The notes beneath the pieces were generated by a model. It worked only from the letters and a program-made list of their open reading frames with translations. It made no database searches and had not been told where the DNA came from. Of a stretch of DNA of 64,000 nucleotides, positions 9,640 to 59,930 are shown piece by piece; within the stretch, counting starts at the first letter, position 1, and each line of letters starts with the position of its first letter. A program made the translations under genes and the position numbers. The stretch is from Candidatus Latescibacterota bacterium (lineage in GTDB: Bacteria > Latescibacterota > UBA2968 > UBA8231). The stretch spans positions 5,152,001 to 5,216,000 of the forward strand of contig OZ241362.1 of the NCBI GenBank assembly GCA_965200315.1, given 5' to 3'.

Positions 9640-9668
9640 GGCATCTTCTCCTATCATTAACTACATAG

Positions 9669-9697: not shown

Positions 9698-9728
9698 GAA
9701 CTAAAAGACCTTAAAGTAGGAAATTCCG

Positions 9729-9793
9729 CTTTTTAATGCTTGTATCAATCTGCGTACTGTCAGCGAACGAAGTCTGCTATAATCAATGGCCAT
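9729..9793 (-). pseudogene. hicA: HicA toxin, 5' part
   Basis: ATG 9793 lies directly after the hicB stop. Reads MAIDYSRLRSLTVRRLIQALK and continues in frame at 6127 once the IS is removed. Confidence 0.85.
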
Positions 9794-9794
9794 A

Positions 9795-10064
9795 CTAGAT
9801 GGCTACGGCGACCAAAGGAACATCGCTGACCTGAATCTGCGAAGGTGGGTCCGTAGGTATGTCTTCGCCAATTTCTAGCAGATGTGCAACGAGAAGATCA
9901 ACAGCATTTTCTAAATTCTCTAAAGCCTCTTTCTCAGTATATCCCCAACTCGCAGCCCCTTTATGCTCTAGCTCGGGAATATAGGCTCGCCAGACCGCTT
10001 TCTCATCGGGCTCATCGGGCCACTTGTCTTGCTCTAAAACAGCCTGAAACAAATACGTTTTCAT
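9795..10064 (-). CDS. hicB: HicB family antitoxin
   Basis: AYIPEL..GAASWGYTEKEALENLENAV pattern, AGGAGG RBS. Confidence 0.85.
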   Translation of the reverse strand: MKTYLFQAVLEQDKWPDEPDEKAVWRAYIPELEHKGAASWGYTEKEALENLENAVDLLVAHLLEIGEDIPTDPPSQIQVSDVPLVAVAI

Positions 10065-10218
10065 ACATATCCCTCCTTTTTATTCGCGCTTCGGACCCCT
10101 CGACAGGACCCGCCAGCTTCCTCAACTAGTAATAGTTTACAACTCGCGGCAAATAGACCCAAATGTGAAACGGACCGGACGCGATGCCATCATACGACTG
10201 CGGCGCGGCAGCGAAAAA

Positions 10219-11376: not shown

Positions 11377-12122
11377 GGGGGGAGGCCGGCACAGTAGTTG
11401 GGGATGTGCGCCAGTGCTGCCCGCGGCCAGACCCGGAAGTCAGCATAGGCGGCCGCGGCGTACCCCCGAGTTGAATTGGCATCGGTGAGCAAGGCGATGC
11501 CAATGGTTTTTTGGGGCAGGTTGGACGACAAGACGCGCTCGTGATCCTTTTCTAGATCGACCCATTCTTGGAGCCATTGCCCCAACTTCTCCGGCCCGCT
11601 TTGGAGCACGACAAACCAAGGGCGGGCAATTCCTTTGCGGCGGGAGACGGTACCCGGAGCCAAGGTCGTGCTCCACACGTATTTGATCTGTCGCGGGATG
11701 CCGAGGAGGTTGCGCGAAAAAATGACGTGTACCCCAGCGGCGCTGTCGTTGGTCTCGGTATAGCGCTCGTCGCCCCCCGGCGGCAGGGCGTCGGCGCGCC
11801 AGCACCAAGTCATAATGGGGTATTGCCGAGGGTCCCAGTGGAATCTCTTCATGAGGACGACCGAGTGGCCGGTGTCCTGTGCGGCTAAATAGCGGCGGCC
11901 GTTGGCCTCGCGGACGGCGTAGAGCTTGGGTTTGTCGTCGTCCTTGCCGCGCCAGCGCCAGGCCCGGGGTAGGCTGTCTAGGGGCGTGGTGGCAAAGTCT
12001 TCGATGACGATGTAGGGGGTGGCTCCGCGCTCACCTCCATCCGGCGGCGCGTTCTGGGCAGAGGCAGTATAGATAGAGAGGACGCAGTAGCCCGCTAGGC
12101 AAGCGAGTATGTGTCGACGCAT
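11373..12122 (-). CDS. DUF3047-like secreted protein
   Basis: Signal peptide, W.WR...LP.GGDE....NDSAA.V.V.F, KYVWS, IALLTDANST. Confidence 0.7.
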   Translation of the reverse strand: MRRHILACLAGYCVLSIYTASAQNAPPDGGERGATPYIVIEDFATTPLDSLPRAWRWRGKDDDKPKLYAVREANGRRYLAAQDTGHSVVLMKRFHWDPRQYPIMTWCWRADALPPGGDERYTETNDSAAGVHVIFSRNLLGIPRQIKYVWSTTLAPGTVSRRKGIARPWFVVLQSGPEKLGQWLQEWVDLEKDHERVLSSNLPQKTIGIALLTDANSTRGYAAAAYADFRVWPRAALAHIPNYCAGLPP

Positions 12123-31330: not shown

Positions 31331-31411
31331 CAGAGAGGGCTTGCACGTACACGCGCCCTGTGTAGAGTGAAAGGGAGGCGTGGGACCGCCAGCAATGAAA
31401 GGAGGATCGTT

Positions 31412-34400: not shown

Positions 34401-34555
34401 AAGCCGACTTTGAGCGCGACCGGCAATTTGTATCCGAGCAAAAGCTGGTCGAAGGGGCAGACATAGTCTATGTCAACGGCGACTCCTGCATCCTCACAGC
34501 CACCGCCATAGAGCCACTGTTCAAGACGCGGATGTTCGTCAGGATGGAGCAATGA
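31412..34555 (+). CDS. mod: Type III restriction-modification methyltransferase (Mod)
   Basis: LFQFDCADLDFGIYRIMN, IYIDPPYN, FPK, ILDYFAGSGTTGHA. AT-richer TRD segment at ~33040-33780. Confidence 0.9.
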   Translation: MADAMGKFQQLLRELFQFDCADLDFGIYRIMNYKREAIEKFVAEKLPDVVASELNSGSLADQARMAADLEEVKEQIAELLGENALDANDNLSESFHSTRVGKKYLNLQKKAVGGFSRAAVEVSIYNHLYTFFSRYYQDGDFISKRRYSKRHHYAIPYNGEEVYLHWANSDQYYIKTSEHFRDYDWKAPNGVAVHFRIKAADVEQNNVKGDKRFFLPHIRETKWNAQDRAVTIPFAYRPLTAAESKQYGSRDQQHKIIAEVVEAIPKRLSKEFDALAALTGERRRNGRDESVSHLEHHLRQYTRRNTSDFFIHKGLAEFLSRELDFYLKSEVLNLDEMAVAGENTAEGWFQMVRVIKSVGNQVIAFLAQMENFQKMLWEKRKFVMETQYCIALGSVDEGFYLDIAGNDAQWDEWRALFHIDEEQIDLFNANKNGREKRIDFLEKHPTLVLDTKHFDADFTDRLLASFDDLDGITDGLLIHGENWQALNLLTERYREEVKCIYIDPPYNTGDSEILYKNGYKDSAWLTMMENRLTTGKAFLEERGMQCTTIDDVEFHMLKELITKTFGSENITGVAVIKNNPSGRSTVKGFSISHEYAIFSSASENTVLGAIPRTGEQLQQYPEEDEMGKFQWRSFIRLGGENDFRTARPKLHYPLVVSGDTVRLPAMEWNSLASRWDLSENLRENEEVFWPIYSDKEYTWRLGVDTLRNRIGDLRVRQTRNGCMTIEIKFRLDDDGVLPKTVWDEKWMNATSYGTTVLRNIMGRSQAFSFPKSVYAIEKSLRVGGLGILGTILDYFAGSGTTGHAVINLNREDGGQRKFILVEMGEYFDTVLLPRIKKVSFTPEWKDGKPKRMATPEEAERSPRIVKYMRLESYEDALSSIELNDDPAQLKLLEKTFGDDYLLKYLLEWETRGNETLLNVEKLRSPFRYRLRIYANGATHERTVDLPETFNYLLGLKVQTRQVYADGEQHYLVYRGETRDAPGQKVAIIWRATDEWVQADFERDRQFVSEQKLVEGADIVYVNGDSCILTATAIEPLFKTRMFVRMEQ

Positions 34556-35259
34556 GCATGCAAATCGAAATCCCCAAAGACGCAATCGCCGCATTCTGTC
34601 GGCGCAACCGCATTCGGCGCATGGCCCTGTTTGGCTCGGTGCTGCGCGACGACTTCGGGCCGGAAAGCGATGTAGATGTGCTAGTGGAGTTTGAGCCGGA
34701 TGTGCGTTTGGGTTGGAAGTTTTTTGCTGTGTCTGCGGAGCTGGGCCGCATTTTGGGCCACAAGGCTGATATGCACACCTTTGAGTCCATTGCAAACAAG
34801 CAAAATTGGCTGCTGCGCGAGGAAATACTCGGCTCGGCCGAAGCGCTGTACGAGCGAGGGCCGGCGTATGAAAGCTGGCCGCAAGAAGGCTGCGATAAGC
34901 CGCTCAAGACAGGTGGGAAGCGGCGCGACGACCGTGTACCCCTGCTGGATATGCTCATCCACGCGAGAAAAGCGGTTGATTCGTTTGGCGAGGTAAGCCG
35001 CGAGGACTTGGAAAACGACTGGATAAAGGAGTTCGCCCTTACTCGGGCAGTGGAAGTGATCGGCGAAGCGGCCCGTCGGGTCTCGCTGCCGACGCAGCAA
35101 CACTACCCGGAAGTGCCGTGGGGTGAAATTATCGGAACGCGCAACGTGCTAGCGCACGACTATGACCAAGTGGACCGCGACAAGCTCTGCGATATGGTGT
35201 GGAATCATCTGCCGCCGCTGATTGCTCATTTGGAAGCTATCGTTGGGGAAGGAGCCTAA
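34552..35259 (+). CDS. Fused MntA-type nucleotidyltransferase + HepT/DUF86 HEPN RNase
   Basis: LFGSVLRDDFGPESDVDVLVEF (GSx10DxD), then EVIGEAA...VPW..I.GTRNVLAHDY (Rx4H), in one ORF. Confidence 0.85.
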   Translation: MSMQIEIPKDAIAAFCRRNRIRRMALFGSVLRDDFGPESDVDVLVEFEPDVRLGWKFFAVSAELGRILGHKADMHTFESIANKQNWLLREEILGSAEALYERGPAYESWPQEGCDKPLKTGGKRRDDRVPLLDMLIHARKAVDSFGEVSREDLENDWIKEFALTRAVEVIGEAARRVSLPTQQHYPEVPWGEIIGTRNVLAHDYDQVDRDKLCDMVWNHLPPLIAHLEAIVGEGA

Positions 35260-35263
35260 GGCC

Positions 35264-38200
35264 ATGCCGCGCCGCCCCACGCCAAAGGACGCCATGTCGG
35301 CCGCCAAGTTGGAACAGCGCTTGGTCCTATTGGCTTGGCTACACAGCCGGCTAGGCTATGCCAACACCAGCGAGCTATTGGCAGACATAGCGCAAGCCGA
35401 CGAAGGCTTTGACGCTGAGGGCCGCAGCCCTATCTACGCCCGGCTGTCCTCGCGCTCTGAGAAGATGCGGGATATTTTGCCGGAGGACTTGGTGCGTTAC
35501 GACGACCACATCCGCAAGCATTTAGCGGCCATGAACGCGGGCCGCCGCCAGCCCATCACGCTGCGCTATTTCCAGTATTTGGCCGCACTGTACAGCGAGA
35601 TTTTCTTGGACTGGTACTTCAACCGCCGCGCCGCGCTGCTGCGCTCACTGAACGAACTAGTCTGGCGGCGCAATAAGGCGCAGGAAACAGAGTTTGCCTC
35701 AGAGGATTTGTGCAAGCTGGCGTTCTGGATGGCCACCGGCAGCGGCAAGACTCTGATCATGCACTTGAACTACCGGCAATACCTGCATTACAACAAGGAG
35801 CCGCTCGACAACATACTACTCATTACGCCTAACGAGGGCCTGAGTCAGCAGCATATTGACGAACTGCAAGCCTCCAATATCGCGGCCGTGCGCTTTGACC
35901 TGAATGAAAGCGGTCTGCTAAACGAAGATCGCGTCAAAGTCACCGAGATCACCAAATTGGTGATAAAAAAGAAGGGCAAAGGGGAGAGCATTCCGGTTGA
36001 GGCCTTTGAAGGCCACAACCTGATTTTTGTGGACGAGGGGCACAAAGGATCTGGCGGCGATGCGTGGCGCCAGGTTCGGGATGCGCTAGGGGCCACCGGG
36101 TTCACCTTTGAATACAGTGCGACCTTCGGGCAAGCCCTGACCGCGGCGCAAAACGAGTTCCTGATAGCCGAATACGGCAAAGCCATCGCCTTTGATTATT
36201 CCTATCGCTATTTCTACGACGACGGCTATGGCAAAAATTTTCATATCCTCAACCTGCGAGAGGAGACGACAGCCGACCAGACTGATAGGCTGCTGCTAGC
36301 CAACCTGCTGTCGTTCTACCAACAACAGCGCGTTTTCAGCCAACAGCAAGAGGAGCTGCGGCCTTACAACTTGGCAAGGCCACTGTGGGTGTTCGTCGGC
36401 AGCCGCGTCAACGCGGTCTATACGGAAAAAGGCCAACCGCGCAGCAACATCCTGACGGTCGTACGCTTCCTACATCGGCTACTGGCGCAACGCGATTGGG
36501 CTATAAGTACCATCAAGCAGCTATTGCAGGCACAGTCGGGATTGCTGGATCCGTATGGGGAAGATCTTTTTGCTGATAAGTTGACATATTTACGCGGTAA
36601 AATGGATGCTGAGGCGGTCTATTGTGCCATATTAACAGACATTCTGGCTGAGTCGTCCGCGAGCGGGGGCGGGCTACACGTATGCGATATCCGCGGCAGC
36701 GAGGGCGAATTGGGCCTCAAAGTCAGCGGAGCGGAAAACTACTTTGGCCTGATTTACGTCGGCGACAAGGCCAAGTTCAAAAAGCTGGTCGCGGCGGACA
36801 ACGCCGGCATCGTCACGGAAGAAGACGCGTTCTCCGACTCCCTGTTCGACGGTATCAACGAGCCAAAGACGACCATTGAGGTACTTATTGGGGCCCGCAA
36901 GTTTATAGAGGGTTGGAATTCGTATCGGGTGTCCAATATGGGGCTGCTCAACATCGGCCAGAGCGAGGGGTCGCAGATAATCCAGCTATTCGGGCGCGGC
37001 GTCCGCTTGCGGGGGCGGGACAGGACGCTAAAACGCAGCTCTGCGCTAGACGGGCGGCATCCCGATCACATCGAGCTGCTAGAGACCCTGAACATCTTTG
37101 CTGTCCGCGCCAACTACATGGCCCAATTCCGAGGCTATCTGGAGCGAGAAGGCGTTGCCACAGAGGGGCTTTTGGAATTTCCCCTGTTTATCCGTCCCAA
37201 CGAGGACTTTCTGAATAAGGGGTTGGTTGTTCCCCGGGTGGACGATGGACGGGATTTCGCGGTTGATACAGGGGTTGTGCTGGAGCCGGTCCCGAATATG
37301 AACCGAGTGTCCGTTGACATGTCTGCCAAGGTCCAAAGGCTGGATAGCAGTGAATCGGGTCCAATGGAGGCGAAGGCCGGCGCGGAATTGCTCATACCGG
37401 ATGCAAGTCTCAAACTAATAGATTGGGAAAGCATCCATTTCGACCTGCTTGCATACAAGGCGCGAAAAGGGTGGGGAAACTTGCTCGTCCAACCGGATGC
37501 GCCGCGAGAAATTTTGGCATACCGCAGCAAATCCGGTGCGCTGTATCGCCTGATAGCGGAGGACGCCGTAGTACGTCCGAAAAACCTCGACGACTTGGAG
37601 CGGCTACAAGAGGCGGCGACTAGCATTGTGCGGCAGTACGCCGACGCCCTCTATCGGCACCGACGCGAGCAGTGGGATTCAGAAAATTTGGTCTATAAGA
37701 CGCTAGACGAGCGAGAGCCCAATCTGCGGTTCAACGTCCGCGATGCCGACGACAGCCGCACCGGCCAATACATAGTAAGCGTGCCGCGGTCGGAAACCGC
37801 ATTGATAGAGGAGATTGAAAAGCTCATCGAGGATAGCTGTGCGCTATACGACAACGAGGCCGCAGCGGGTGCTTTGCCGCGTCTTCATTTTGACCGGCAC
37901 TTATATCAACCGCTGCTGCAAGAAGGCGATGTCAAGGTAAAAATATCCCCACTGGGATTAAATGAAAGCGAACAGAAATTCGTGCGGGATGTGCGGGCAT
38001 ACTGGAAAAAAGAGCAAGGTAACGCACTGGCCGGCGCGGAGATATTCCTGTTGCGGAATCTGAGCCGCGGCAAAGGCGTAGGGTTCTACGAAACCAGCGG
38101 CTTCTACCCGGACTTCATTCTATGGATAAAAAAGGGCGACGAACAACGCATTGTGTTCATCGAGCCGCACGGCATGCTCCATGCAAATGCTTACAGGCAC

Positions 38201-38428
38201 GACGCCAAGGCCCAATTGCACGAGCGGCTACCGGACGTAGCCGCTAAAATGTCCCGCTCAAACGTAAGCCTCGATTCTTTCATAATTTCGGCGACGCCCT
38301 ACAAAGACCTGTATAGACACTACAATAACGGCGAGTGGACGCTAGAGCAGTTTGCTGAAAAGCACATTCTCTTTCCCGAGCGGGATGGCGACTATATGGC
38401 AAGAATTATCGGGTGCGTTAAGAGCTAA
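35264..38428 (+). CDS. res: Type III restriction endonuclease (Res)
   Basis: MATGSGKT, VDEGH, YSATF, QLFGRGVRL, C-terminal FYPDFILW...FIEPHG nuclease motif. Confidence 0.9.
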   Translation: MPRRPTPKDAMSAAKLEQRLVLLAWLHSRLGYANTSELLADIAQADEGFDAEGRSPIYARLSSRSEKMRDILPEDLVRYDDHIRKHLAAMNAGRRQPITLRYFQYLAALYSEIFLDWYFNRRAALLRSLNELVWRRNKAQETEFASEDLCKLAFWMATGSGKTLIMHLNYRQYLHYNKEPLDNILLITPNEGLSQQHIDELQASNIAAVRFDLNESGLLNEDRVKVTEITKLVIKKKGKGESIPVEAFEGHNLIFVDEGHKGSGGDAWRQVRDALGATGFTFEYSATFGQALTAAQNEFLIAEYGKAIAFDYSYRYFYDDGYGKNFHILNLREETTADQTDRLLLANLLSFYQQQRVFSQQQEELRPYNLARPLWVFVGSRVNAVYTEKGQPRSNILTVVRFLHRLLAQRDWAISTIKQLLQAQSGLLDPYGEDLFADKLTYLRGKMDAEAVYCAILTDILAESSASGGGLHVCDIRGSEGELGLKVSGAENYFGLIYVGDKAKFKKLVAADNAGIVTEEDAFSDSLFDGINEPKTTIEVLIGARKFIEGWNSYRVSNMGLLNIGQSEGSQIIQLFGRGVRLRGRDRTLKRSSALDGRHPDHIELLETLNIFAVRANYMAQFRGYLEREGVATEGLLEFPLFIRPNEDFLNKGLVVPRVDDGRDFAVDTGVVLEPVPNMNRVSVDMSAKVQRLDSSESGPMEAKAGAELLIPDASLKLIDWESIHFDLLAYKARKGWGNLLVQPDAPREILAYRSKSGALYRLIAEDAVVRPKNLDDLERLQEAATSIVRQYADALYRHRREQWDSENLVYKTLDEREPNLRFNVRDADDSRTGQYIVSVPRSETALIEEIEKLIEDSCALYDNEAAAGALPRLHFDRHLYQPLLQEGDVKVKISPLGLNESEQKFVRDVRAYWKKEQGNALAGAEIFLLRNLSRGKGVGFYETSGFYPDFILWIKKGDEQRIVFIEPHGMLHANAYRHDAKAQLHERLPDVAAKMSRSNVSLDSFIISATPYKDLYRHYNNGEWTLEQFAEKHILFPERDGDYMARIIGCVKS

Positions 38429-49132: not shown

Positions 49133-49224
49133 AAGGAGCTGTTAGATTTGCAGAGAACAACGTACCAAAAAAACGCCGCGTGTGCATGAGGGCGGCCCGG
49201 CCCGAGAAAGTCTATCAGATCAAT

Positions 49225-51768
49225 ATGTTGAGCAACATAGTCCAATCGCTACGAGTATGGGTCCGGTGTCTATGGCATCGAAGAACCCATGCGTCCCAAA
49301 AAAAAGCAAATTCCTATCCATTTTCGGAATCTCAGGTCCCTGCGAGAGAGTCGCCGGAAGTCCCCCAAGAGTTGACTCCACCTACAAAGTGGAGACAGCG
49401 CAAACCTGACACAGATAGCTTGGAGAGCGATCACACTACGGAAGTGGCAGACTGTGCTGAAGAGGATAATCCGCAGGCAGGGCCAGGGGGCCCTTATTCA
49501 GTGGACGCCAAACCCGAAGAGGACAACCACAAGACTGTATCTGATAGTCGGAACGCTGCTGACGAAGAGCCCAATGATGACGAGTTCGCCAAGTCCGGCC
49601 AAGTTCCCATAGAAATCGAACCGGTCACGCCAAGCAGTACCGGTTCAGAAAAGACACCTTCCGATCCGCCGGAAGATGCACTTTTGGAGCTGGATTCGTC
49701 TTTGGCACAACCTGCCGAAGCTCGCGAAAACGTACCTAATAGCAATGCCGACGTCGGCGATTCATTGCAGCCCGACTTGATCGCCCTGCCTCCTGAGCCA
49801 CCGAAGAAGGCCGAACCGCCTGAAGACAACGCTCGCATTGAGAATTCAGCTTCTCTGGAGAACAAGGGGAAGAAACAAAATCGAAGTCAAAAGTCCCCAC
49901 GTAGAATAGGCGGAAGGCGAAATGGACCGACACAGTCCCCATCGCCAGTCGATGACGATGCTAAGGACGAGCCAACGTTTACACCTTGCCCGGAACTCAT
50001 CTGCCGCAAGGCTTCTGGGGCTTGGCAGTGGGAGGTCGTGTTGGCTGTGGATGCCGAATGCAACATCATGGGAGTTCGGCACGATGGCGAACCTCTGGAT
50101 ATGGTGAACGGCGAATACAGTCTTTCGGCCTTGGCTGGCAGCTTGTCTATTGACTACGAAGATCGCGAATCGGATCAGTTGCCGTTGTTCGACGACAGGC
50201 CGCTGATCTTCAAGATGCCGAACGATTGGAATGGTGCTGGTCCCAAGGTAGGCGGCATCACCAGTGGATACTTCATCGTTATGGTCCCGAGGGAGTGGAA
50301 ACGCACGGGGAGCGCACCTGTTGCGCCGGAGAAATGCACGGACGCGAACTTCATGGCGCATTTTTTCTATATGGAGAAAGGCGGTCCGGCGGGAGATGTA
50401 GGCGGGTTCGAGGATTGCGATCTCGAATTGACCAAAACCGGCTTTGAGTTGGACGGGGACCGTGTCTTTGACGATTGTGAAAACGGCGAGTTATTCGTTG
50501 GTGATCCGCCAAGGCTGTGCCCTGCCTCAGGCATTGTGTGGGCGCGGATCGGCGAAGAAAAGACGGGCGGATGGAAAGGAGAGAACTTCAAGCCGGCCGA
50601 GCAATCTCTTGCGGAGGTTTTGAATGGCCGCCAAGGGCGATTCTTTGTCCGTGTTTACGACGATGGCGCGAAGTTGCTAGACAGTGGCGAGTTTCGCTAT
50701 CTGCGCGACCTCCGGGCGATTCGCGTGAATGATGAACCGCACTCTGCGAATACACTGCTCGTCCCGTCCTCAACAGGATATTCGTCGGCAAAGGTACAAT
50801 TCGTCAGTGCTGACGGCACTGCCATCCAACCAGACCTCGACACCGCCGGAACCCATGCAACCGTGCAGTCGGAAGGCACTCTTATAGTTGCGCCGCATCC
50901 GGATGGGGATCGCATATCGTGTGTCTTGCCGGCCGGTGCGGACCGCGTCGATACCGTCATCAAACTACCGCGCATTTGGTGGCAGATGAAGCAAGATGAT
51001 GGGGAGGCCGACGAATGGCGCGACAGGCCCTTGGCGATGAGTCGGCAGGAGTTTCGCCACTTCGAGGATGCGGCGATTCGATTGCGCTTGCCGCTGCGCG
51101 TTTCATCGGTCAAGGTGGGGTTCAGCGAGGAACTGGACCGGACCTATCGCCCCCAAAAGAATGGAGATAACACGGAGGCTGAGATACGTTTGTCCGACTT
51201 TATCGACTACGATCAGATTGACCAACGGCTGAACGAGGATGCTTTGCTCAATATTCAATGCGGCACAGAGGTAATGGCACTCATCCGTGTTTCTGCCGAT
51301 TCCGTACCGACGATCACAACTTTCAGGTCGGAACCGATGGTGGTCAAAATCGGCGAGACAGCTACATTGCACTGGGCCACCCAAAATGTGGAGTTGGATG
51401 GCGTTGTTGTTGTTATTGAACCTGAAATCGGCTCGGTGGAATCGAGCGGCAGCCAAACGGTCAAACCCACTGAAACCACTACTTACACGCTGAGACTGAG
51501 AGCTCCAGGCATAGAGGACGTGGAGCAAGCCGTTACTGTGGCAGTAAAGGCACGACCGCTGACAGAGGAGGAGCTATTTGCGCGGGTCAAGTGTGCGAAG
51601 TGTGCAGGTGGGGCTTGGCGACCAGGCGCAGGCTTCAGCCGCGGCGAGCTTTATGCCGCCGGTCTAACCAATGCGGACGCGATGCGCAGGTCCATCCCCA
51701 CCGATAGACGCCGCCGGAGTACGCATTTAGCCAACATAGACACCATCAAGAGGTTTATTGATGTCTGA
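49225..51768 (+). CDS. Hypothetical protein: acidic disordered N-terminus, beta-rich core, Ig-like repeat, C-terminal ribosomal eL13-like motif
   Basis: C-terminus WRPGAGFSRGELYAAGLTNADAMRRSIPTDRRRRSTHLANIDTIKRF. Stop overlaps the helicase start. Confidence 0.75.
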   Translation: MLSNIVQSLRVWVRCLWHRRTHASQKKANSYPFSESQVPARESPEVPQELTPPTKWRQRKPDTDSLESDHTTEVADCAEEDNPQAGPGGPYSVDAKPEEDNHKTVSDSRNAADEEPNDDEFAKSGQVPIEIEPVTPSSTGSEKTPSDPPEDALLELDSSLAQPAEARENVPNSNADVGDSLQPDLIALPPEPPKKAEPPEDNARIENSASLENKGKKQNRSQKSPRRIGGRRNGPTQSPSPVDDDAKDEPTFTPCPELICRKASGAWQWEVVLAVDAECNIMGVRHDGEPLDMVNGEYSLSALAGSLSIDYEDRESDQLPLFDDRPLIFKMPNDWNGAGPKVGGITSGYFIVMVPREWKRTGSAPVAPEKCTDANFMAHFFYMEKGGPAGDVGGFEDCDLELTKTGFELDGDRVFDDCENGELFVGDPPRLCPASGIVWARIGEEKTGGWKGENFKPAEQSLAEVLNGRQGRFFVRVYDDGAKLLDSGEFRYLRDLRAIRVNDEPHSANTLLVPSSTGYSSAKVQFVSADGTAIQPDLDTAGTHATVQSEGTLIVAPHPDGDRISCVLPAGADRVDTVIKLPRIWWQMKQDDGEADEWRDRPLAMSRQEFRHFEDAAIRLRLPLRVSSVKVGFSEELDRTYRPQKNGDNTEAEIRLSDFIDYDQIDQRLNEDALLNIQCGTEVMALIRVSADSVPTITTFRSEPMVVKIGETATLHWATQNVELDGVVVVIEPEIGSVESSGSQTVKPTETTTYTLRLRAPGIEDVEQAVTVAVKARPLTEEELFARVKCAKCAGGAWRPGAGFSRGELYAAGLTNADAMRRSIPTDRRRRSTHLANIDTIKRFIDV

Positions 51769-54700
51769 TGCAAACGACATACGACAATGGCCTGAGAAGA
51801 TTCGCCAACGTTATGAAAATTATCTGAAGACCTCCTTCTACTTCAAAGATCCGAGCCTGCGGAAATCCTTCCAAGCCGCGCTGAAGGAGGAAGGCAGTCT
51901 ATTGAAGGGTCCGTTTCCCGAACCGGCCCGTGGCTTCAAACAGGGCCTGAACGCAAGAGCGTTGGCACAGGAGTGTTTTCCTGACCAAATCGAAGGTCTT
52001 CTCCCGGCGCTGATTGACCGGCCGTTGTACGTGCATCAAGAGTGCGCGATCCGAGCCACGTACCAAAATCAACAGAACATCGTCGTCGCCACCGGCACCG
52101 CCAGCGGCAAGACCGAGAGTTTCCTCTACCCGATTCTATTTGAGTTGTACCGTCAGCATCTAGCTGGCAAACTGCGGGAGCCGGGGGTGCGGGCGATGAT
52201 CCTGTACCCGATGAATGCACTCGCCAACGACCAGCGCGAACGCCTTGGAAACATCTGCAAGGACTTGAGCGAAGCAGCGTCGCGATTCAAACCTACGTTC
52301 GGCCAGTACATCGGGCAGACGCCCGAAGATAGTAAAGACAACAGGCGCAATGCCGCTGCACGGGACGAGGAACGCTTGCCTGGCGAATTGGTCTTCCGCA
52401 AGGAGATGCGAGACGCGCCGCCGCACATCCTGTTGACCAACTACTCCATGCTGGAATACCTGCTCATTCGTCCCGACGACAGCCCGCTGTTCGACGACGG
52501 TCGGGGTACGCGCTGGCAGTTCATCGTGCTCGACGAGGCGCACCAATACCGCGGTGCCAAGGGCATGGAGATGGGCATGCTGATCCGGCGTCTCAAGCAG
52601 CGGTTGCGCGCTGGCGGTCGCAAAGATTCGTTTCGCTGCATCGCCACCAGCGCGACCATTTCCTCCGGCGAGGGAGAGGAAGACAAGCAAGCTGTGGCGG
52701 ATTTTGCCGAAGCGCTCTTTGGCGAACGCTTCTCGGTGCCAGGGATCATTTTTGGGGAATCTGAGCAGACAAGCAAAGACGGACGCCCGCGGCGTTATCA
52801 CGCCTTCCTGCGAGCACTTGAAGGAGCATTTCTGGTTCACAGAGAGGGGGCGGATGCCGTTGTGTTGAACCGCAAAGGCGTGATGGAGGACGGCTCCACT
52901 GCGGAACCGTTGGAAGTCGCGCTGTGCCGCGAGTGCGGGCAGCACTACTACGTTGGTCGGGAGAGAGGCGGAAAGCTGCAAGAGGCAGTCCGCGACCCCA
53001 GCCAGTCGGATTTTGGCGTGGACTACTATCTGCCATTGGAGGGAGCAACGCACGTTTTGTGTAGGCGCTGTGGTGCGCTCTCCCCATCCGGTCTCACATG
53101 CGGTTGCGGAGCGGCAATTCGCGTCAAGAAATGCAAATCTCACGAGGAGCATCCCGACCAACTCAAGCAATGCGAGACCTGCGGCTATCAACGCGGCGGC
53201 ATCGGCGATCCCGTGCAGGAGATCATTCACGGTTCTGACGGTCCTAATGCGGTCATCGCGACGGCTTTGCACGAGTTGCTGCCGGAAAACGGGCGCAAGG
53301 TGCTGGCTTTTGCCGACAGTCGGCAGGAAGCGGCGTTCTTCGCGTGGTACGCGGAGGACTCTTACGAGAAGGTTCGCGACCGCAATCTGATGTTACGTGC
53401 GCTGAGAGAGGGGCCGGTTGATCGGGAAGCCCTGTCCATTGACGACATCAAGAACCGGTTGCTCAAACAATGGGATTGGGCTGGCCTGTTTAAAGGATCA
53501 GATACTACGGAGAGCAAAAACCGCAGGGTGCTAGTAGCGATCTTTCGCGAAGCACTGACGGATGAGAGAAGGCTGTCTCTGGCTGGTGTCGGTTTGGTCA
53601 AGTGGTACGTCAAGATTCCTGATAACTTGACATTACCCCGAGCAATGAGAAATCCGCCGTGGAATCTCACGGACGAGGAAGCGTCCGGTCTGATAGGGTA
53701 CCTTTTGGACGAGATGCGCCTGCACCGCGCCATGGCTTTGTCGGAAAGCTCCGAAGCTCCGGCATGGAGCGATGTTTCGCCGTGGCCCCAACAAGCCTAC
53801 GGTTTGGGGCGACCCGGCAAACGGCGGCATGTCTCCGAGTGGGGCGGCTCCCAATCCGCAATCGTGAAGCACTTCCTTCACAGGTTGCTTGCAGGCAGTG
53901 GGCTGCCCGACGATAAGAAGCAGGTGAAATCAGAGGAGCTCATGAAGGATATATGGTGCGCACTGCGCGGCCATGCTGACGAGCCCATTCTTTGCCGAGA
54001 AAAGACGAACGGGACGTTTCGTCTCAACCCGCGCTGGTTGCGTATTAAGTTTGCCGCTCCCGATGAGATTTGGGAATGCAGTACCTGCGCTACGCTGACC
54101 CCTCACAACATTCGCCAAGTCTGTCCTAGAAATAAATGCCCCGGCTTCTTGATTCCGGCCGATCACACACGCCTTGAGGAAAATCATTATCGAATTCTTT
54201 ACGAAAGCACTGACTTGCCGCCCGTCCTGCGCTCGGAGGAGCACACCGCGCAGATCGAGAGCGACGAAGCGCGTCGGAGACAGGATTGTTTCAAGAACGG
54301 AAAGACGCACCTCCTCAGTTCCTCGACTACATTTGAAGTCGGAGTTGATCTAGGCGATCTAGAGGCTGTGTTCCTCCGCAATGTGCCGCCGGAGCCATTC
54401 AACTATACTCAGCGCGTCGGGAGGGCGGGACGCCGAGAGACACCGGGGCTCGCTCTGACCTACTGTCGTCGCAATCCGCATGATCTCTACCACTACGAAG
54501 ATCCCAAGAATCGCGTAATCGAAGGCAAGGTGCGGCCGCCGCGATTGCAGATGAAGAATGCGAAAATCATCGTCCGGCACATGGTCGCCACTGCCTTGTC
54601 TGCGTTTTTCAAGACTGTAGAGAATAGGGAACGTTTTAGGAACGTAGAAGCATTCATCGGAAATTGGTCGAATCCGTGCGCTGTATCCGACCTAAAGCAA

Positions 54701-55993
54701 TTCTGCGAGGATAACGATGTGTTGAGGGACTCTCTGAGCCGGATCGTGCCGCAGGATATGCGCGAAGAGACTGGCCTTGCCAGCGATGATTGGATTGACC
54801 AGATAGCTGGGCCGCAAAGCCGATTCGCCGATGTAGAAGCGGAAGTGTGCGCGGATTATCGCGAAATGGAGAAGTTCCGGCTGAAACTGTTCAATCAGCA
54901 TAAAGGAACAAACAGAGTCGAAGCTCGCATGAAAACCATTGCCGGCGAGCAGACTTTGAACTTCCTGTCGCGCAAGGCAGTCATTCCCAAATACGGCTTT
55001 CCCGTGGATGTCGTCGAGCTTGATACTCGTCCCCAGGTCGGCAACCCAACGGGTATATCACTTCAGCGTGATTTATCCCAAGCCATCGCCGAGTACGCGC
55101 CTGGCGGCAAGGTGGTGGCAAACAAACTGGAATGGGAATCTTGCGGGATCAAGAAGATTCCCGGGAAGGAATGGTCGATCCGTCATTACGAATACGATGA
55201 TGCTGATGCGCGTAACTTCAAGCAATGGAATGAAGGTGCCTTGCCCGAGCCCGAGCCCCACAATAGTAGAAAATACCTTATCCCGGAGTTCGGTTTCGTA
55301 ACGCCGCTGTTCACGAAACCCAAGGAACCGCGTGGACGAGTACAGCGCCTATATACGACTCGGCCGTTTTTCCAAGGCTTCGAAAAAAATGACCAACCCG
55401 ACCCCAAGAACATCCTCGGCGTACAAGTTACCAAGGCTCGGCCCGGAACTTTGGTCATCCTGTGCGAAGGCTGGAACAGAGGGGGGTTCTATATCTGCCT
55501 CTCTTGTGGCACTCACAAGACGAAATCAAAAGGGATTCACAAATCCCCTTCGGATTCCGAATGCTCCGGTCCCTTAGCCCAGTTCTCGCTTGGCCACGAA
55601 CTGGTCACGGACGTCGTGCGCTTGCAATTTCCTCAGCTAACAGGCGAGTGGGAAGCCTATTCGGTCGCCTACGCGGTCCTGCTCGGCGCAGCCGAGACCT
55701 TGGACGTACCGGATGCGGATCTAAATGTGACGATTACCGGCAGCACTGGGGAATCCGCAATAGTGCTCTACGACAACGTGCCGGGCGGCGCGGCACTGGT
55801 CGCACAACTGGAACAGGAGAGCGTCTTCAAGGAGATGCTCCGCAACGCACGGCAACGGGTTCAGGGCAATTGCGGCTGCGATTCGAGCTGCTACGGCTGC
55901 TTGCGGAGCTATCGAAATCAATTCGCCCATCCGCGCTTGGATCGGAAGAAGGCACTGGAGGCACTGGCGATCTTGGACACCCGCGTTGGGTGA
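51758..55993 (+). CDS. DEAH-box SF2 helicase with Zn fingers and C-terminal DUF1998 (DruE/MrfA-like)
   Basis: TGTASGKTE, YPMNALANDQ, LDEAH, SAT, AFADSRQ, STTFEVGVDLG, QRVGRAGR, LYDNVPGGA...CGCDSSCYGCLRSYRNQ..H..LDR. Confidence 0.92.
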   Translation: MMSDANDIRQWPEKIRQRYENYLKTSFYFKDPSLRKSFQAALKEEGSLLKGPFPEPARGFKQGLNARALAQECFPDQIEGLLPALIDRPLYVHQECAIRATYQNQQNIVVATGTASGKTESFLYPILFELYRQHLAGKLREPGVRAMILYPMNALANDQRERLGNICKDLSEAASRFKPTFGQYIGQTPEDSKDNRRNAAARDEERLPGELVFRKEMRDAPPHILLTNYSMLEYLLIRPDDSPLFDDGRGTRWQFIVLDEAHQYRGAKGMEMGMLIRRLKQRLRAGGRKDSFRCIATSATISSGEGEEDKQAVADFAEALFGERFSVPGIIFGESEQTSKDGRPRRYHAFLRALEGAFLVHREGADAVVLNRKGVMEDGSTAEPLEVALCRECGQHYYVGRERGGKLQEAVRDPSQSDFGVDYYLPLEGATHVLCRRCGALSPSGLTCGCGAAIRVKKCKSHEEHPDQLKQCETCGYQRGGIGDPVQEIIHGSDGPNAVIATALHELLPENGRKVLAFADSRQEAAFFAWYAEDSYEKVRDRNLMLRALREGPVDREALSIDDIKNRLLKQWDWAGLFKGSDTTESKNRRVLVAIFREALTDERRLSLAGVGLVKWYVKIPDNLTLPRAMRNPPWNLTDEEASGLIGYLLDEMRLHRAMALSESSEAPAWSDVSPWPQQAYGLGRPGKRRHVSEWGGSQSAIVKHFLHRLLAGSGLPDDKKQVKSEELMKDIWCALRGHADEPILCREKTNGTFRLNPRWLRIKFAAPDEIWECSTCATLTPHNIRQVCPRNKCPGFLIPADHTRLEENHYRILYESTDLPPVLRSEEHTAQIESDEARRRQDCFKNGKTHLLSSSTTFEVGVDLGDLEAVFLRNVPPEPFNYTQRVGRAGRRETPGLALTYCRRNPHDLYHYEDPKNRVIEGKVRPPRLQMKNAKIIVRHMVATALSAFFKTVENRERFRNVEAFIGNWSNPCAVSDLKQFCEDNDVLRDSLSRIVPQDMREETGLASDDWIDQIAGPQSRFADVEAEVCADYREMEKFRLKLFNQHKGTNRVEARMKTIAGEQTLNFLSRKAVIPKYGFPVDVVELDTRPQVGNPTGISLQRDLSQAIAEYAPGGKVVANKLEWESCGIKKIPGKEWSIRHYEYDDADARNFKQWNEGALPEPEPHNSRKYLIPEFGFVTPLFTKPKEPRGRVQRLYTTRPFFQGFEKNDQPDPKNILGVQVTKARPGTLVILCEGWNRGGFYICLSCGTHKTKSKGIHKSPSDSECSGPLAQFSLGHELVTDVVRLQFPQLTGEWEAYSVAYAVLLGAAETLDVPDADLNVTITGSTGESAIVLYDNVPGGAALVAQLEQESVFKEMLRNARQRVQGNCGCDSSCYGCLRSYRNQFAHPRLDRKKALEALAILDTRVG

Positions 55994-56024
55994 CCGCCTC
56001 TGGCCAGCTAGTGAGGTACAAAAG

Positions 56025-56888
56025 ATGATGCCCCCGCGTTTCTTCAATGAACACAAAAGGAGGGATCCACTGAAGTCTTTAGATCAGCCTACCGGAGCCG
56101 CTTGGCGGCCCGTTAGGCCAGACGAGTGCGCCGACCCGCTTGGCGCCTTGGCCCGGGCGGAGATACCGGCGATTCTGCTGCCCCAAGTTTGCACGCCAGC
56201 CGATTGCCAGCGGCTGATGGAGCGCTTTGGCGAGCGCGGGTTGCTGCGCACCCCGGGCGACCAGCGCTCGCGCATCGACATTGGCACCAGCCTCGGCAAC
56301 ATGGGCGGCGACCAAGAGGCATTCCTCGCTCATGCCGAGGAGACGGCCGCGCTTTTTGCCACCCTCTTCGCGGGTCTGCTCGACCCGGTGCAGCTGCTCT
56401 ATCGGCACTTGCAGGCGCTGGCGCCCAACAAGGCGGTTAAGACAGCGCGCGAGCGCGACGGGCGCTTGTACGGCCCGGCCATCTTTCGCATCCACTACGA
56501 GACCCATTCCTATAGTCCGCACATCGACCACGTAGTTCTGCGCGAAAAGCGATTCAACTACGAGGTAGCGCGCTTTACCCACCAATTTGCCGGTGTGCTG
56601 TGCGTGCAGAACGCGGATTCTGCGGGCCCTGGGGTGCAGGCGGTGTTGCACCGTTGTCTGTGGACCGAGGAGATACAGCCGCATATCGCCGAAGGCCGTT
56701 TTCACGAGTATGCGGCCGCGCATGGCGTGGAGCACTGCGAGGTCGCGCTCGCGCCGGGCGATTTGTATTTCTTCAATACGCGCTGCATCCACGAGGTCCC
56801 AGCGGTGCAGGGGCGCGATCCGCGGGTGGTGCTCGCCGTCTTCATTGGCTATGCCGACGACGACGACGAAATCTACGTGTGGTCTTAA
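56025..56888 (+). CDS. 2OG-Fe(II) oxygenase superfamily protein (start uncertain)
   Basis: PHID (HxD), PGDLYFFN..CIHEV....R. Confidence 0.7.
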   Translation: MMPPRFFNEHKRRDPLKSLDQPTGAAWRPVRPDECADPLGALARAEIPAILLPQVCTPADCQRLMERFGERGLLRTPGDQRSRIDIGTSLGNMGGDQEAFLAHAEETAALFATLFAGLLDPVQLLYRHLQALAPNKAVKTARERDGRLYGPAIFRIHYETHSYSPHIDHVVLREKRFNYEVARFTHQFAGVLCVQNADSAGPGVQAVLHRCLWTEEIQPHIAEGRFHEYAAAHGVEHCEVALAPGDLYFFNTRCIHEVPAVQGRDPRVVLAVFIGYADDDDEIYVWS

Positions 56889-58574: not shown

Positions 58575-59930
58575 ATGACTACCGACCTAGCACTTCTCCA
58601 CCGCGACCCGCAATACACCTACCCGGTTCTCGTCAAGGGCGAGGGGATTTACTTATACGACGAAGCGGGCAATCGCTATATCGACGGCACGGCCGGGGCT
58701 GGCAACGTCACCCTAGGCCACGGTCGTCATGCCATCGTCGAGGCTATGGCCGCTCAGGGAAGGGAATTGGCCTATTGTTTTTCGACGTTTTTTACCAACC
58801 CTCCGGCCCTTGAATACGCCCGCCGCTTGGCCGAACTGGCCCCCGGGGATTTGAACCACGCGTACTTTGTCTCGGGTGGCTCCGAAGGCGTGGAGACGGC
58901 CATTAAACTGGCCCGCTTGTACCATCTGCAGCGGGGCCAAGCGCAAAAGCACCAGATCATCGGTCGCTGGCGCGGCTATCACGGTGCTACTTTGGGGGCC
59001 TTGGCCGCTACCGGGATGCCGGGGCTGCGGGTGCCTTTTGAGCCATATCTGCCAGCTTTTCCGCACATTGCCTCGTGCTATCCTTATCGCTGCGCTTTTG
59101 CCGGTTGCGAAGATCGCTGCAATTTGACCTGTGCCCGTCAGTTAGAAGAGACCATCGCGAGGTAGGGGCCGACAATATCGCGGCCTTTATCGCCGAGCCG
59201 GTGGTCATGGCCGGGGTCGCCGCTGGGGTACCGCCGCCCGATTACTACCCTCTCATTCGCCAAATCTGCGCCGAGCCACGACGTCCTTTTTATCGCCGAC
59301 GAGATCATCACCGGCTTTGGCCGCACCGGCAAACTCTTTGCCATTGAGCATTGGGACGTAGTGCCCGATATGATCGTTTTTGGCAAAGGGGCCAGCAGCG
59401 GATACGCGCCCTTGGGAGGGGTGTTGCTGAGCGAACAGATGCGGCGGGGCCTCACCCGCAGCGGCCAAGCCCTGCCGCACGTTTTTACCTATGTCAACAA
59501 CCCAGTAGCCATGCGCGCTGGCTTGGCCGTACTGGACCTGCTAAAAGAAGAAGGGATCGTGCAACACGCCGCTCAGGTGGGGGCCTATTTGCAGGAAAAG
59601 GCCCCGAGCTTGACGCGCCACGCTTGCGTCGGCCAAGTGCGCGGCAAGGGCCTGATGCTGGGGATTGAACTGGTGCAGGATCGCCGCAGTCGCAAGCCCT
59701 TTCCCCCTGAGTGGGGCGTGGCGCAGCGCGTGCCTCTGCTTGCCTTGGAACGGGGCTTGGCTATTTCGGGCACTAGCGGGGGAGCCAATTGGGTTGCGGG
59801 CGATGATTTGCGCTTTTACCCGCCGCTGATCATTGCGCAGGAACAGCTCGACGAGTCCCTAGCTATCATGGACGAGTGTTTGGGATTGCTGGAAGAGGAA
59901 CTGCGGCAAAAGGGCTGGGTGCCAGCCTAG
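58575..59930 (+). pseudogene. Class III aminotransferase with two frameshifts
   Basis: GEGIYLYDE..YIDG, SGGSEGVE, YHG; then AFIAEPV in another frame; then IADEIITGFGRTG, FGKG back in the first frame. Shifts are near 59157 and 59276. Confidence 0.8.

What the first reader, a model, noticed from the sequence alone, without database searches (positions are those of the whole stretch)
49225..55993. Candidate new two-gene defence system: eL13-motif protein coupled to a DruE-like DUF1998 helicase
Seen: two overlapping genes inserted between housekeeping-type genes. Gene 1 (~848 aa) has a long acidic disordered N-terminus, an unrecognised beta-rich core, an Ig-like repeat and a C-terminal R.G.GFS.GEL..AG.....A....I..D.RRRS.H..N...K segment. 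Gene 2 is a 1411-aa DEAH helicase with Zn fingers and DUF1998. Known: DUF1998 helicases form the core of Druantia (DruE) and occur in DISARM (DrmB), but I do not recognise this partner as any Dru or Drm protein. Inference: this is a Druantia-like anti-phage module. Its partner may use an RNA-binding ribosomal-protein motif to sense or engage RNA or ribosomes, or to load the helicase.
Basis: partly seen in the sequence, partly recalled or inferred. Interest (0 to 1): 0.85.

Follow-up and report, generated by a model that had tools for sequence, protein, structure and literature searches.

The report
Druantia-like helicase cassette, ribosomal-motif partner
A mobile two-gene cassette pairs a helicase related to the Druantia phage-defence helicase DruE with an uncharacterised multi-domain partner whose tail copies part of ribosomal protein eL13, making it a likely new variant of a known bacterial anti-phage system.

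Summary

The pair is conserved. 52 of 57 loci from at least 13 phylum-level groups, all MAGs, have the helicase directly downstream. It behaves as an accessory cassette: 3 of 5 same-genus genomes have an empty site, and sponge-metagenome runs show a presence/absence polymorphism.

Gene 1 is not DruH by sequence. 0 of 41 family members hit any PADLOC model, and hhalign against E. coli DruH gives probability 0.1%.

The tail is swappable. About 81% of members carry the eL13-like tail. Others carry uS17, uS5, winged-helix, Zn-ribbon or basic tails. This favours a generic nucleic-acid-binding anchor over a ribosome-specific role.

Verdict: probably a new variant of Druantia type III, with an Ig-array partner taking the place of DruH. 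Defence function is inferred, not shown.

The parts
49200..56086 (+). Polymorphic two-gene cassette (6,887 bp)
   Evidence: Contigs of runs X4, X5 and X6 break at 49199/49200 and at 56086/56087, with loose ends leading into other sequence. In the DNA run X5 one 6,950-nt contig spans 49170-56116 at depth 31.7, against 60-93 in the flanks. GC is 0.55-0.59, against 0.61-0.635 in the flanks.
49225..51768 (+). Gene 1, partner protein (847 aa from the ATG; the frame is open from GTG 49180)
   Evidence: Family of at least 391 clusters at 90% identity. No Pfam, NCBIfam or PADLOC family covers the core.
49360..49884 (+). Acidic, proline-rich, probably disordered region (P0001 residues 61-235)
   Evidence: 23% D+E, 14% P, net charge -23. 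Not conserved in the family alignment.
49891..49920 (+). Conserved basic motif K.PR.IGGRR just before the core
   Evidence: Present in the family consensus.
49987..51294 (+). Beta-rich core of several beta-sandwich domains. It holds most of the invariant residues.
51298..51549 (+). Ig/PKD-like domain (model residues 448-531)
51565..51765 (+). eL13-like C-terminal module (model residues 537-603), net charge +6
51761..51768 (+). 8-nt overlap of the gene 2 start (ATG) with the gene 1 stop (TGA)
   Evidence: Taking the residue aligned to the window's TTG as the start, 42 of 52 loci overlap, and 32 of them at the window's own spacing (8 nt from the ATG).
51761..55993 (+). Gene 2, DruE-like YprA/MrfA-family helicase (1410 aa from the ATG)
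   Evidence: PADLOC DruE1 E 1.8e-157 and DruE3 E 2.3e-154. PDB 9tu7 (2108 aa, the best PDB match, taken by its length to be E. coli DruE) E 4.6e-73 and YprA 6znp E 4.3e-20.
52034..52663 (+). RecA1 / DEAD domain
   Evidence: Pfam PF00270, E 5e-18.
52925..53182 (+). Cys-rich (Zn-binding type) insertion
   Evidence: Eight invariant Cys in 31 helicases. A beta-barrel with CxxC motifs is described at this position in the ARMADA/Druantia clade (Bell et al., passage).
54230..54436 (+). RecA2 / Helicase_C
   Evidence: Pfam PF00271, E 1.5e-10.
55667..55903 (+). MZB (DUF1998) Zn-binding domain. The protein ends 29 residues later, so a C-terminal nuclease domain does not fit.
   Evidence: Pfam PF09369, E 3.2e-12.

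Best explanation
This is a self-contained, horizontally mobile two-gene anti-phage module of the Druantia/YprA-helicase class. It is closest in layout to Druantia type III-B, with the DruH partner replaced by a protein family unrelated to it in sequence.

Proposed working (inferred by analogy with published type III work):
1. The helicase loads on single-stranded or forked DNA of replicating phage and unwinds it 3'-to-5'.
2. The partner, made in coupled translation just upstream, uses its array of Ig-like beta-sandwich domains as the fast-evolving recognition or scaffold part.
3. The partner's small basic C-terminal module (here eL13-like) holds on to nucleic acid, either the strand exposed by the helicase or an infection-specific RNA or DNA.
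4. Neither protein shows a recognisable nuclease domain. Interference would therefore come from blocking or immobilising replication intermediates, or from recruiting host nucleases.

Shown here: domain content, homology of the tail to eL13, conserved synteny, mobility and patchy distribution. Inferred: defence function, substrates and the roles of the parts.
For: - Helicase identity: PADLOC DruE models E 1.8e-157 to 8.1e-110. Pfam DEAD, Helicase_C and MZB. Best PDB sequence match is 9tu7, a 2108-aa DEAD/DEAH helicase, E 4.6e-73.
- Synteny: 52 of 57 genome loci with a gene 1 relative have the helicase directly downstream on the same strand. 42 of the 52 overlap, with the helicase start taken by alignment to the window's. 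The record titles name at least 13 phylum-level groups.
- Partner evolves faster than the helicase in 52 of 52 loci (median identity to the window's proteins 44% against 70%). The same is reported for DruH against DruE (Wu et al., passage).
- Accessory behaviour: found in 4 of 24 other same-genus species genomes, and only one of those copies is intact. Found in 0 of 16 genomes of other genera of the class.
- Empty site: YdjM and the WelO5-like gene lie about 40-46 bp apart (match ends) in 3 of 5 same-genus genomes.
- Population polymorphism: the cassette stands at about 0.4 of flank depth, with alternative junctions. Its GC is lower than the flanks.
- Defence or mobile neighbours recur among the 101 nearest ORFs: ResIII 4, AAA_22 4, DDE transposases 3+2, N6_N4_Mtase 2, PIN 2, AAA_21 2. 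PADLOC gives mad2 3, MTases 2, DpdF 2.
- In L001 gene 1 is followed by GmrSD_N and AAA_15/DUF3696 genes instead of the helicase.
- A type III R-M pair lies 11 kb upstream in the window.
- Layout parallels published DruH: six Ig-like domains between terminal domains, with the C-terminal region binding ssDNA and the DruE stalk. The M. smegmatis pair has a DruE in which only DExD/H, helicase-C and DUF1998 domains are listed, and a 17-bp overlap.
- Tail swaps to other nucleic-acid-binding modules.
Against: - No experiment; function rests on analogy.
- Most immediate neighbours are ordinary metabolic genes, and no third gene is conserved. Defence-island support is therefore modest. The output format does not give the share of neighbours with a defence hit.
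- No effector activity is recognisable in either protein.
- Published DruH carries an N-terminal helical exonuclease region and a C-terminal helical domain that contacts DruE. Gene 1 has neither, so the analogy may fail at the mechanistic level.
- Helicase scores against the DruE models (about 520 bits over part of their length) show a distant relative whose subtype I could not place.
- Presence in metatranscriptome contigs does not prove transcription. The cassette-to-flank depth ratio there resembles that of the DNA run.
Confidence: 0.6

Rival explanations
1. Gene 1 is a true but very divergent DruH. It would share the ancestral Ig-domain array, having lost both helical end domains and gained new ends. 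The locus would then be an ordinary member of Druantia type III-B rather than a variant with a new partner.
For: - Same position, strand and start-stop overlap relative to DruE as in published systems.
- Both partners are built around several Ig-like domains.
- Himpich et al. state that III-B has a compact DruE without PLD domains plus DruH.
Against: - 0 of 41 family members hit any of the PADLOC DruH3 models, whereas E. coli DruH hits 10 of them.
- The window's protein gave no PADLOC family at E<=0.1, and in NCBIfam only the L13e model, so nothing that would mark the STY4851/ECs_5259 family under which E. coli DruH is annotated.
- hhalign of the family profile against E. coli DruH gives probability 0.1%.
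- Ig-like folds are too common to argue descent.
- A structural comparison with the solved DruH (9tud) could not be made.
Confidence: 0.15
2. The partner is physically tied to the gene-expression machinery. Its end modules are pieces of ribosomal proteins (eL13, uS17, uS5) and, in some members, a sigma-70 domain. They would dock it on ribosomes or RNA polymerase, or act as baits that phage take-over factors attack. The helicase would then be switched on by interference with translation or transcription.
For: - Three different ribosomal-protein modules occupy the same C-terminal position. eL13-like. uS17: full Pfam domain E 2.1e-28 in L033, 46% identical to that genome's own uS17. uS5: Pfam S5_C E 3.7e-19 and S5 N-terminal domain E 2.7e-7 in one member, taken by its tail sequence to be P0165, whose tail is 40% identical to a stretch 3 kb from the uS17-like hit in the window's genome, read as rpsE.
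- An N-terminal fusion to sigma-70 regions 2-4 lies in one 1349-aa ORF in L047. L053 has a similar 1357-aa ORF that was not scanned.
Against: - Bacteria have no eL13 (established knowledge), so the commonest tail cannot mimic a host protein.
- Other tails at the same position look like winged helix, Zn ribbon, helix-hairpin-helix or plain basic helices. These suggest nucleic-acid binding in general.
- DruE-type helicases bound ssDNA and not ssRNA in vitro (Himpich et al., passage).
Confidence: 0.15
3. The pair is not an immune system but an accessory DNA-repair or replication-restart module, like MrfA/MrfB, carried on a mobile cassette.
For: - YprA/MrfA relatives act in repair (PDB 6znp match E 4.3e-20; Bell et al. 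describe a repair branch).
- Flanking genes in the window are metabolic.
Against: - Far stronger match to DruE models than to YprA-type models (TIGR03817 117.9 bits against a cut-off of 874).
- No MrfB-like exonuclease.
- Patchy within-genus distribution, remnants and population polymorphism fit defence genes better than repair genes.
- The fast-evolving partner points the same way.
Confidence: 0.07

Closest known systems
Druantia type III-B (DruH-DruE; the Mycolicibacterium smegmatis MSMEG_1253/1254 pair is taken here as an example because only helicase and DUF1998 domains are listed for its DruE; the paper itself says only 'type III')
   Same: - Two genes, with the partner upstream and overlapping the helicase.
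- The helicase has DExD/H, helicase-C and DUF1998/MZB domains and no listed nuclease domain.
- The partner is large and has no Pfam domains (passages).
   Different: - The partner here is shorter (847 against 1132 aa) and hits no DruH model.
- Its ends are a disordered acidic N-terminus and a small eL13-like tail.
- The helicase is shorter (1410 against 1667 aa).
- Whether gene 2 falls in the III-B clade was not tested.
Druantia type III-A (E. coli / P. aeruginosa DruH-DruE; PDB 9tud for DruH, and 9tu7 taken to be DruE)
   Same: - Same helicase class (E 4.6e-73 to 9tu7).
- The partner is built around several Ig-like domains.
- The partner diverges faster than the helicase (Wu et al.).
   Different: - DruE III-A carries two PLD-type nuclease domains. 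Gene 2 ends right after MZB.
- DruH has an N-terminal helical region with reported 3'-5' exonuclease activity and a C-terminal helical domain that binds ssDNA/ATP and the DruE stalk. Gene 1 has neither.
- hhalign probability is 0.1%.
Ribosomal protein eL13 (archaea and eukaryotes)
   Same: - The conserved G.GFS..EL ... D.RR motif is shared (E 5.4e-9 to Pyrobaculum eL13).
   Different: - Only the conserved core segment is present, fused to the end of an 847-aa bacterial protein.
- Scores are below the curated family cut-offs.
- Bacteria do not use eL13 in their ribosomes (established knowledge).
MrfA/YprA repair helicases and the ARMADA/DISARM YprA-like defence helicases
   Same: SF2 core plus MZB/DUF1998. 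A Cys-rich insertion, as described for the ARMADA-Druantia lineage.
   Different: No MrfB exonuclease, no BrxHII/DrmD-type SNF2 gene and no methyltransferase next to it in the window. One relative (L050) has an SNF2 helicase fused to the partner.

Membership tests
Druantia (any type) | DruE: a large YprA-like SF2 helicase with DUF1998/MZB | tested here: met
   PADLOC DruE1 E 1.8e-157, DruE3 E 2.3e-154, DruE2 E 1.5e-120, DruE4 E 8.1e-110. Pfam DEAD, Helicase_C and MZB.
Druantia type III | Partner is DruH (PADLOC DruH3 models; annotated as the STY4851/ECs_5259 family; assigned to the YjiT family by Wu et al.) | tested here: not met
   No DruH model hit for the window's protein at E<=0.1. None for 37 of 37 family members or 4 of 4 long members at E<=0.01. 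E. coli DruH as positive control hits 10 DruH3 models. hhalign probability 0.1%. This is a sequence-level test only.
Druantia type III | Structural likeness of the partner to solved DruH (N-terminal helical domain, six Ig-like domains, C-terminal helical domain) | not testable with these tools
   9tud is in the PDB sequence copy but did not appear in the fold-library results. Proteins known only from an annotated-record locus may not be folded. The gene 1 model has no helical end domains.
Druantia type III | Two-gene operon, with the partner upstream of the helicase | tested here: met
   8-nt overlap in the window. 52 of 57 loci are syntenic.
Druantia type III-A | C-terminal PLD-type nuclease domains on DruE | tested here: not met
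   No PLD or other nuclease family in Pfam. The protein ends 29 residues after MZB.
Druantia (any type) | Protects against phage | not testable with these tools
   Needs a challenge assay.
Ribosomal protein eL13 | Sequence match to the family model at the curated threshold | tested here: not met
   Pfam 18.2 bits against a cut-off of 24.9. NCBIfam 35.9 bits against 96. The match is significant as a local similarity (E 4.2e-9; profile against PDB E 5.4e-9).
Ribosomal protein eL13 | Fold of the conserved core | tested here: met
   [not shown]
Ribosomal protein eL13 | Stand-alone ribosomal subunit component | tested here: not met
   It is the last 67 residues of an 847-aa protein and the only copy in the genome.
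DISARM / ARMADA | YprA-like helicase next to a BrxHII/DrmD-type SNF2 helicase and a methyltransferase | tested here: not met
   The window flanks are YdjM and WelO5-like genes. No third gene is conserved among 101 nearest ORFs of 52 loci.

The most novel reading that the evidence does not exclude
The partner protein is a modular sensor that has repeatedly captured pieces of the cell's own expression machinery (eL13-like, uS17 and uS5 modules at its C-terminus, a sigma-70 domain at its N-terminus). It would use them to sit on ribosomes or RNA polymerase, or as baits for phage take-over factors. That would couple surveillance of translation or transcription to a DNA helicase. This would be a kind of 'integrated decoy' logic not yet described for helicase-based bacterial immunity.
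Probability: 0.15. Interest if true: 0.85.

Novelty: new variant of a known kind. Interest (0 to 1): 0.62.

Why it matters
- Druantia is widespread, and its type III mechanism was only worked out in 2026. The published work rests on DruH.
- This locus shows that the same helicase class is paired, in a large cross-phylum family of uncultured and largely sponge-associated bacteria, with a different partner that current defence-finder models do not see.
- If it defends, the Druantia class becomes wider, and systems of this type are being missed in metagenomes.
- It also offers a natural experiment: one conserved helicase with many interchangeable partner tails. That could show what the partner's nucleic-acid-binding end contributes.
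- A bacterial protein carrying a real eL13 segment is itself an oddity of ribosomal-protein evolution.

Tried and rejected
- Foldseek against PDB with the 603-residue core model gave only generic multi-Ig proteins (titin, contactin; TM<=0.2). This does not help with ancestry.
- ESM Atlas look-alikes of residues 260-800 scored 0.80 or less, which is chance level by the tool's own note.
- Complex prediction with helicase residues 575-1410 and partner residues 441-603, both as alignments, returned 'no answer' (score 0.07, mark 0.32). This is not evidence either way.
- A search of the window's genome with one DruH model (PDLC00039) found nothing, but the control genomes did not ring either, so it is uninformative.
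- No flanking direct or inverted repeats mark the cassette ends. Promoter and terminator scans were at or below shuffle expectation. There are no tRNA genes or Rfam families in the window.
- Literature searches for eL13 with anti-phage, L13e with helicase/bacteria/fusion, DUF1998/helicase/defense/L13e, DruE with ribosomal protein, and a six-term decoy search found no description of this family. The one eL13 + anti-phage hit was a strain name in a reference list. These searches cover open-access papers and bioRxiv only.
- Supplementary tables were closed. Tables S1 and S2 of Bell et al. (10.1101/2025.09.15.676423) may already list this helicase clade and its neighbour.
- I could not place gene 2 in the published DruE tree, because reference sequences of types I, II, III-B and IV were not to hand.
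- Metatranscriptome contigs cover most of the cassette (X4: 49775-56116 with no differences). DNA carry-over cannot be excluded, so I do not claim expression.
- The weak NusG (E 0.0013) and SNF2_assoc (E 0.0064) hits in L050 are below Pfam thresholds. I dropped the idea that this fusion is RapA-like.
Full report
WHAT IS THERE. Two co-directional ORFs fill the interval. The longest frame of gene 1 runs 49180-51768. The ATG at 49225 (847 aa) is the likelier start. The family consensus begins at that methionine, and the cassette edge mapped from public runs falls at 49199/49200. Gene 2 starts at ATG 51761 (a TTG lies at 51758) and ends at 55993. Its start overlaps the gene 1 stop by 8 nt, with a GAGG just upstream.

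GENE 2. Pfam finds DEAD (93-302), Helicase_C (825-893) and MZB/DUF1998 (1304-1382) and no nuclease domain. PADLOC gives DruE1 E 1.8e-157, DruE3 E 2.3e-154, DruE2 E 1.5e-120 and DruE4 E 8.1e-110, far above DpdJ, DrmA and BrxH models. NCBIfam has nothing at threshold. The best PDB sequence match is 9tu7, a 2108-aa DEAD/DEAH helicase that I take by its length to be E. coli DruE, at E 4.6e-73; YprA 6znp scores E 4.3e-20. In 31 aligned orthologues eight Cys of an insertion between the RecA domains, and the Cys of MZB, are invariant. The protein ends 29 residues after MZB. It is therefore a compact DruE relative without a recognisable nuclease domain. Its roughly equal scores to type I and type III models mean I cannot assign a subtype.

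GENE 1.
- Residues 61-235 are acidic and proline-rich (net charge -23) and are not conserved.
- A short basic motif, K.PR.IGGRR, precedes a well conserved core.
- With a 37-sequence alignment AlphaFold2 gives pLDDT 86.3 for the last 603 residues. The model is a chain of beta-sandwich domains followed by a short helical tail.
- Foldseek finds only generic multi-Ig proteins.
- Sequence agrees with structure. NCBIfam archaeal L13e gives E 4.2e-9. The family profile against PDB gives E 5.4e-9 to Pyrobaculum eL13 and about 1e-5 to eukaryotic eL13.
- The first 270 core residues fold confidently (pLDDT 87.9). They give only weak Fn3-like matches for the second domain and none listed for the first.
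- The core has no Pfam, NCBIfam or PADLOC family.

IS THE PAIR REAL?
- The gene 1 core has 391 relatives among 90%-identity clusters. The best 120 are all at E<1e-175.
- A profile search of 1.84 billion representatives lists 150 best hits at E<=2e-171. 149 of them match long stretches of the core. One (P0124) matches only through the Ig-like repeat, so the total of 1,270 at E<=1e-30 is probably inflated.
- In one-genome-per-species contigs 57 loci encode a relative. All are MAGs, and their titles name at least 13 phylum-level groups.
- 52 of the 57 have the helicase directly downstream on the same strand.
- The five exceptions are a 2.4-kb contig (L024), a contig that ends 2.4 kb on (L045), two gene 1 fragments (L054, L057) and L001.
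- In L001 gene 1 is followed, overlapping, by a GmrSD_N protein and an AAA_15/AAA_21-DUF3696 ATPase.
- With the helicase start taken by alignment to the window's, 42 of the 52 pairs overlap, 32 of them at the window's own 8-nt spacing.
- In 52 of 52 loci the partner is less conserved than the helicase (median identity to the window's proteins 44% against 70%).

MOBILITY.
- Among 40 relatives, gene 1 was found in 4 of 24 other species genomes of the same genus: one intact copy, one with a TAG stop, one in pieces, and one 33-residue remnant. It was found in 0 of 16 genomes of other genera of the class.
- In 3 of 5 complete same-genus genomes the flanking YdjM and WelO5-like genes lie about 40-46 bp apart (match ends). 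In the other two the gaps are 0.7 and 1.7 kb. In the window the two genes lie about 6.9 kb apart.
- Public runs labelled sponge metagenome hold the stretch.
- In three runs of one study the contigs break at 49199/49200 and 56086/56087 with loose ends into other sequence. In the DNA run the cassette contig has depth 31.7 against 60-93 for the flanks. Cassette-bearing strains and strains with another allele therefore coexist.
- GC is 4-7 points below the flanks. No terminal repeats were found.

CONTEXT. Window neighbours are metabolic or envelope genes. A type III methyltransferase (31367-34555, E 1.5e-187) and restriction enzyme (35222-38428, E 5e-157) lie 11 kb upstream. I scanned 101 nearest ORFs from the 52 syntenic loci. 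These were chosen from 200 candidates: one on each side of the pair where there was one, plus ten large flanking ORFs. The most recurrent Pfam families are typical of defence or mobile elements: ResIII 4, AAA_22 4, DDE transposases 3 and 2, DEAD 3, N6_N4_Mtase 2, PIN 2, AAA_21 2. Many housekeeping singletons stand beside them. PADLOC shows mad2 3, methyltransferases 2, DpdF 2, PDC-S11 2 and NsnB 2. No third gene is conserved. This is a self-contained cassette in variable contexts, with modest defence-island support.

IS GENE 1 DruH? I took E. coli ATCC 8739 DruH from NC_010468.1. It equals PDB 9tud and hits 10 PADLOC DruH3 models. The window's protein, 37 of 37 family members and 4 of 4 long members hit none. 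hhalign of the family profile against DruH gives probability 0.1%. [quoted passage not shown] Other groups describe it as an ssDNA binder inhibited by ATP, or as a sensor with J-like and Ig-like domains that evolves faster than DruE. Gene 1 shares the Ig-array theme and the fast evolution but lacks both helical ends. A direct structural comparison with 9tud was not possible.

THE TAIL IS A SWAPPABLE MODULE. 255 stored relatives were screened, and 210 carry a core motif. Of these, 152 have the eL13-type tail by a strict pattern. About 18 more have it by eye, giving roughly 81% in total. About 31 have other tails and about 9 are truncated (the last three counts are my reading of the printed tails). 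The other tails include:
- A complete uS17 domain. In L033 it scores Pfam E 2.1e-28 and is 46% identical to that genome's own uS17. In P0061 it is 53% identical to the uS17-like stretch of the window's genome.
- uS5 N- and C-terminal domains. One member scores Pfam E 2.7e-7 and 3.7e-19. By its tail sequence I take it to be P0165, whose tail is 40% identical to a stretch 3 kb from the uS17-like hit in the window's genome, as in a ribosomal-protein operon. P0255 looks the same by eye.
- A TrcR-like segment in L048 (E 2.4e-11).
- Modules that look like winged helix, Zn ribbon and helix-hairpin-helix. This rests on reading the sequences, not on a model hit at threshold.
- Plain basic helices. These occur in relatives whose cores are 73-80% identical to the window's protein, so swapping is recent.
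In L038 and L040 the eL13 motif is split by an insert of about 65 residues.
The N-terminus varies too. In L047 one 1349-aa ORF joins a coiled coil and sigma-70 regions 2-4 to the core. In L050 an SNF2 helicase is fused behind the core.

READING. The simplest account is a Druantia-type helicase module with a partner that combines a recognition or scaffold array with an exchangeable nucleic-acid-binding end. The eL13-like piece is the commonest version of that end. The bolder account is docking to, or mimicry of, the translation and transcription machinery. It is kept alive by three ribosomal-protein modules and the sigma fusions. It is weakened because bacteria lack eL13, because many tails are not ribosomal, and because DruE bound ssDNA and not ssRNA in vitro. 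Defence itself is inferred from family membership of the helicase and from the cassette's population behaviour.

PAPERS SEEN.
- Bell et al. 10.1101/2025.09.15.676423: abstract, section 5 and passages.
- Himpich et al. 10.64898/2026.05.13.724758: passages.
- 'Molecular basis of the Druantia anti-phage defense system' 10.64898/2026.05.12.722862: passages.
- Li and He PMC13316683: passages.
- PMC13463889: passages.
- Loeff et al. 10.64898/2026.05.13.724313: abstract and sections 5, 7, 9 and 17.
- Wu et al. 10.64898/2026.05.12.724681: passages.
None of the three papers searched for 'L13' or 'ribosomal' holds either term in the main text. Supplements were not available.

Noticed in passing
window 31367-38428 (+): A type III restriction-modification pair: methyltransferase (PADLOC MTase_III E 1.5e-187) followed by restriction enzyme (REase_III E 5e-157). 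It lies about 11 kb upstream of the cassette.
   Followed up: partly
G000:C1:1951377-1963723 (locus L063:1377-13723, minus strand): The same genome holds a second YprA-like helicase (1760 aa; DruE3 model E 1.9e-95). It is followed by a DpdE/DrmD-like SNF2 helicase (953 aa; E 5.7e-210) and preceded by two mad3/mad8-like genes. This may be an ARMADA- or DISARM-like system.
   Followed up: partly
L047:7424-11473, and L053 (ORF 7388-11458): In two Thermoanaerobaculia MAGs the partner is unusually long. In L047 it is a 1349-aa fusion of a coiled coil, sigma-70 regions 2, 3 and 4 and a region-1.2-like piece to the core, with a degenerate eL13 tail. L053 has a similar 1357-aa ORF that was not scanned.
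   Followed up: partly
L050:8642-13912: In a Longimicrobiales MAG one 1756-aa ORF joins the partner core to an SNF2-type helicase (SNF2-rel E 2e-61, Helicase_C E 2e-25), ahead of a DruE that appears frameshifted.
   Followed up: partly
L001:9326-15050: A full-length partner with an eL13 tail is followed not by the helicase but by a GmrSD_N (DUF262) protein and an AAA_15/AAA_21-DUF3696 ATPase, overlapping in operon fashion. The partner may work with other effectors.
   Followed up: partly
L038 and L040 (gene 1 tails); P0152, P0220: The eL13-like motif is split by an insert of about 65 residues, between the G.GFS..E half and the D.RRRS.H half. The insert was not identified.
   Followed up: no
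window 49199/49200 and 56086/56087: In three sponge-associated runs the contigs branch exactly at these two points into another sequence of at least about 2 kb (contigs of 1266 and 783 nt share only 30 nt with the window). The site therefore holds alternative inserts in the population. Their content was not seen.
   Followed up: no
window 58575-59165 and 59361-59930 (+): Two adjacent ORFs match the front (profile 11-184) and the back (252-403) of Aminotran_3. This is a class III aminotransferase gene that looks split, either broken or an assembly error.
   Followed up: no
G022:C1:805402-805500: A same-genus genome without the cassette keeps a 33-residue remnant of the partner's N-terminus at 82% identity. 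This suggests past loss.
   Followed up: no
loci L001-L057 (record titles) and runs X1, X5, X9 and others: All 57 loci are MAGs. Their taxa (Poribacteria, SAR202, Dadabacteria, Binatia, Latescibacterota and others) are ones I recall as typical of marine sponge microbiomes. The runs that hold the window are labelled sponge metagenome. The helicase is 55-89% identical across phyla, which suggests recent exchange within that habitat.
   Followed up: partly
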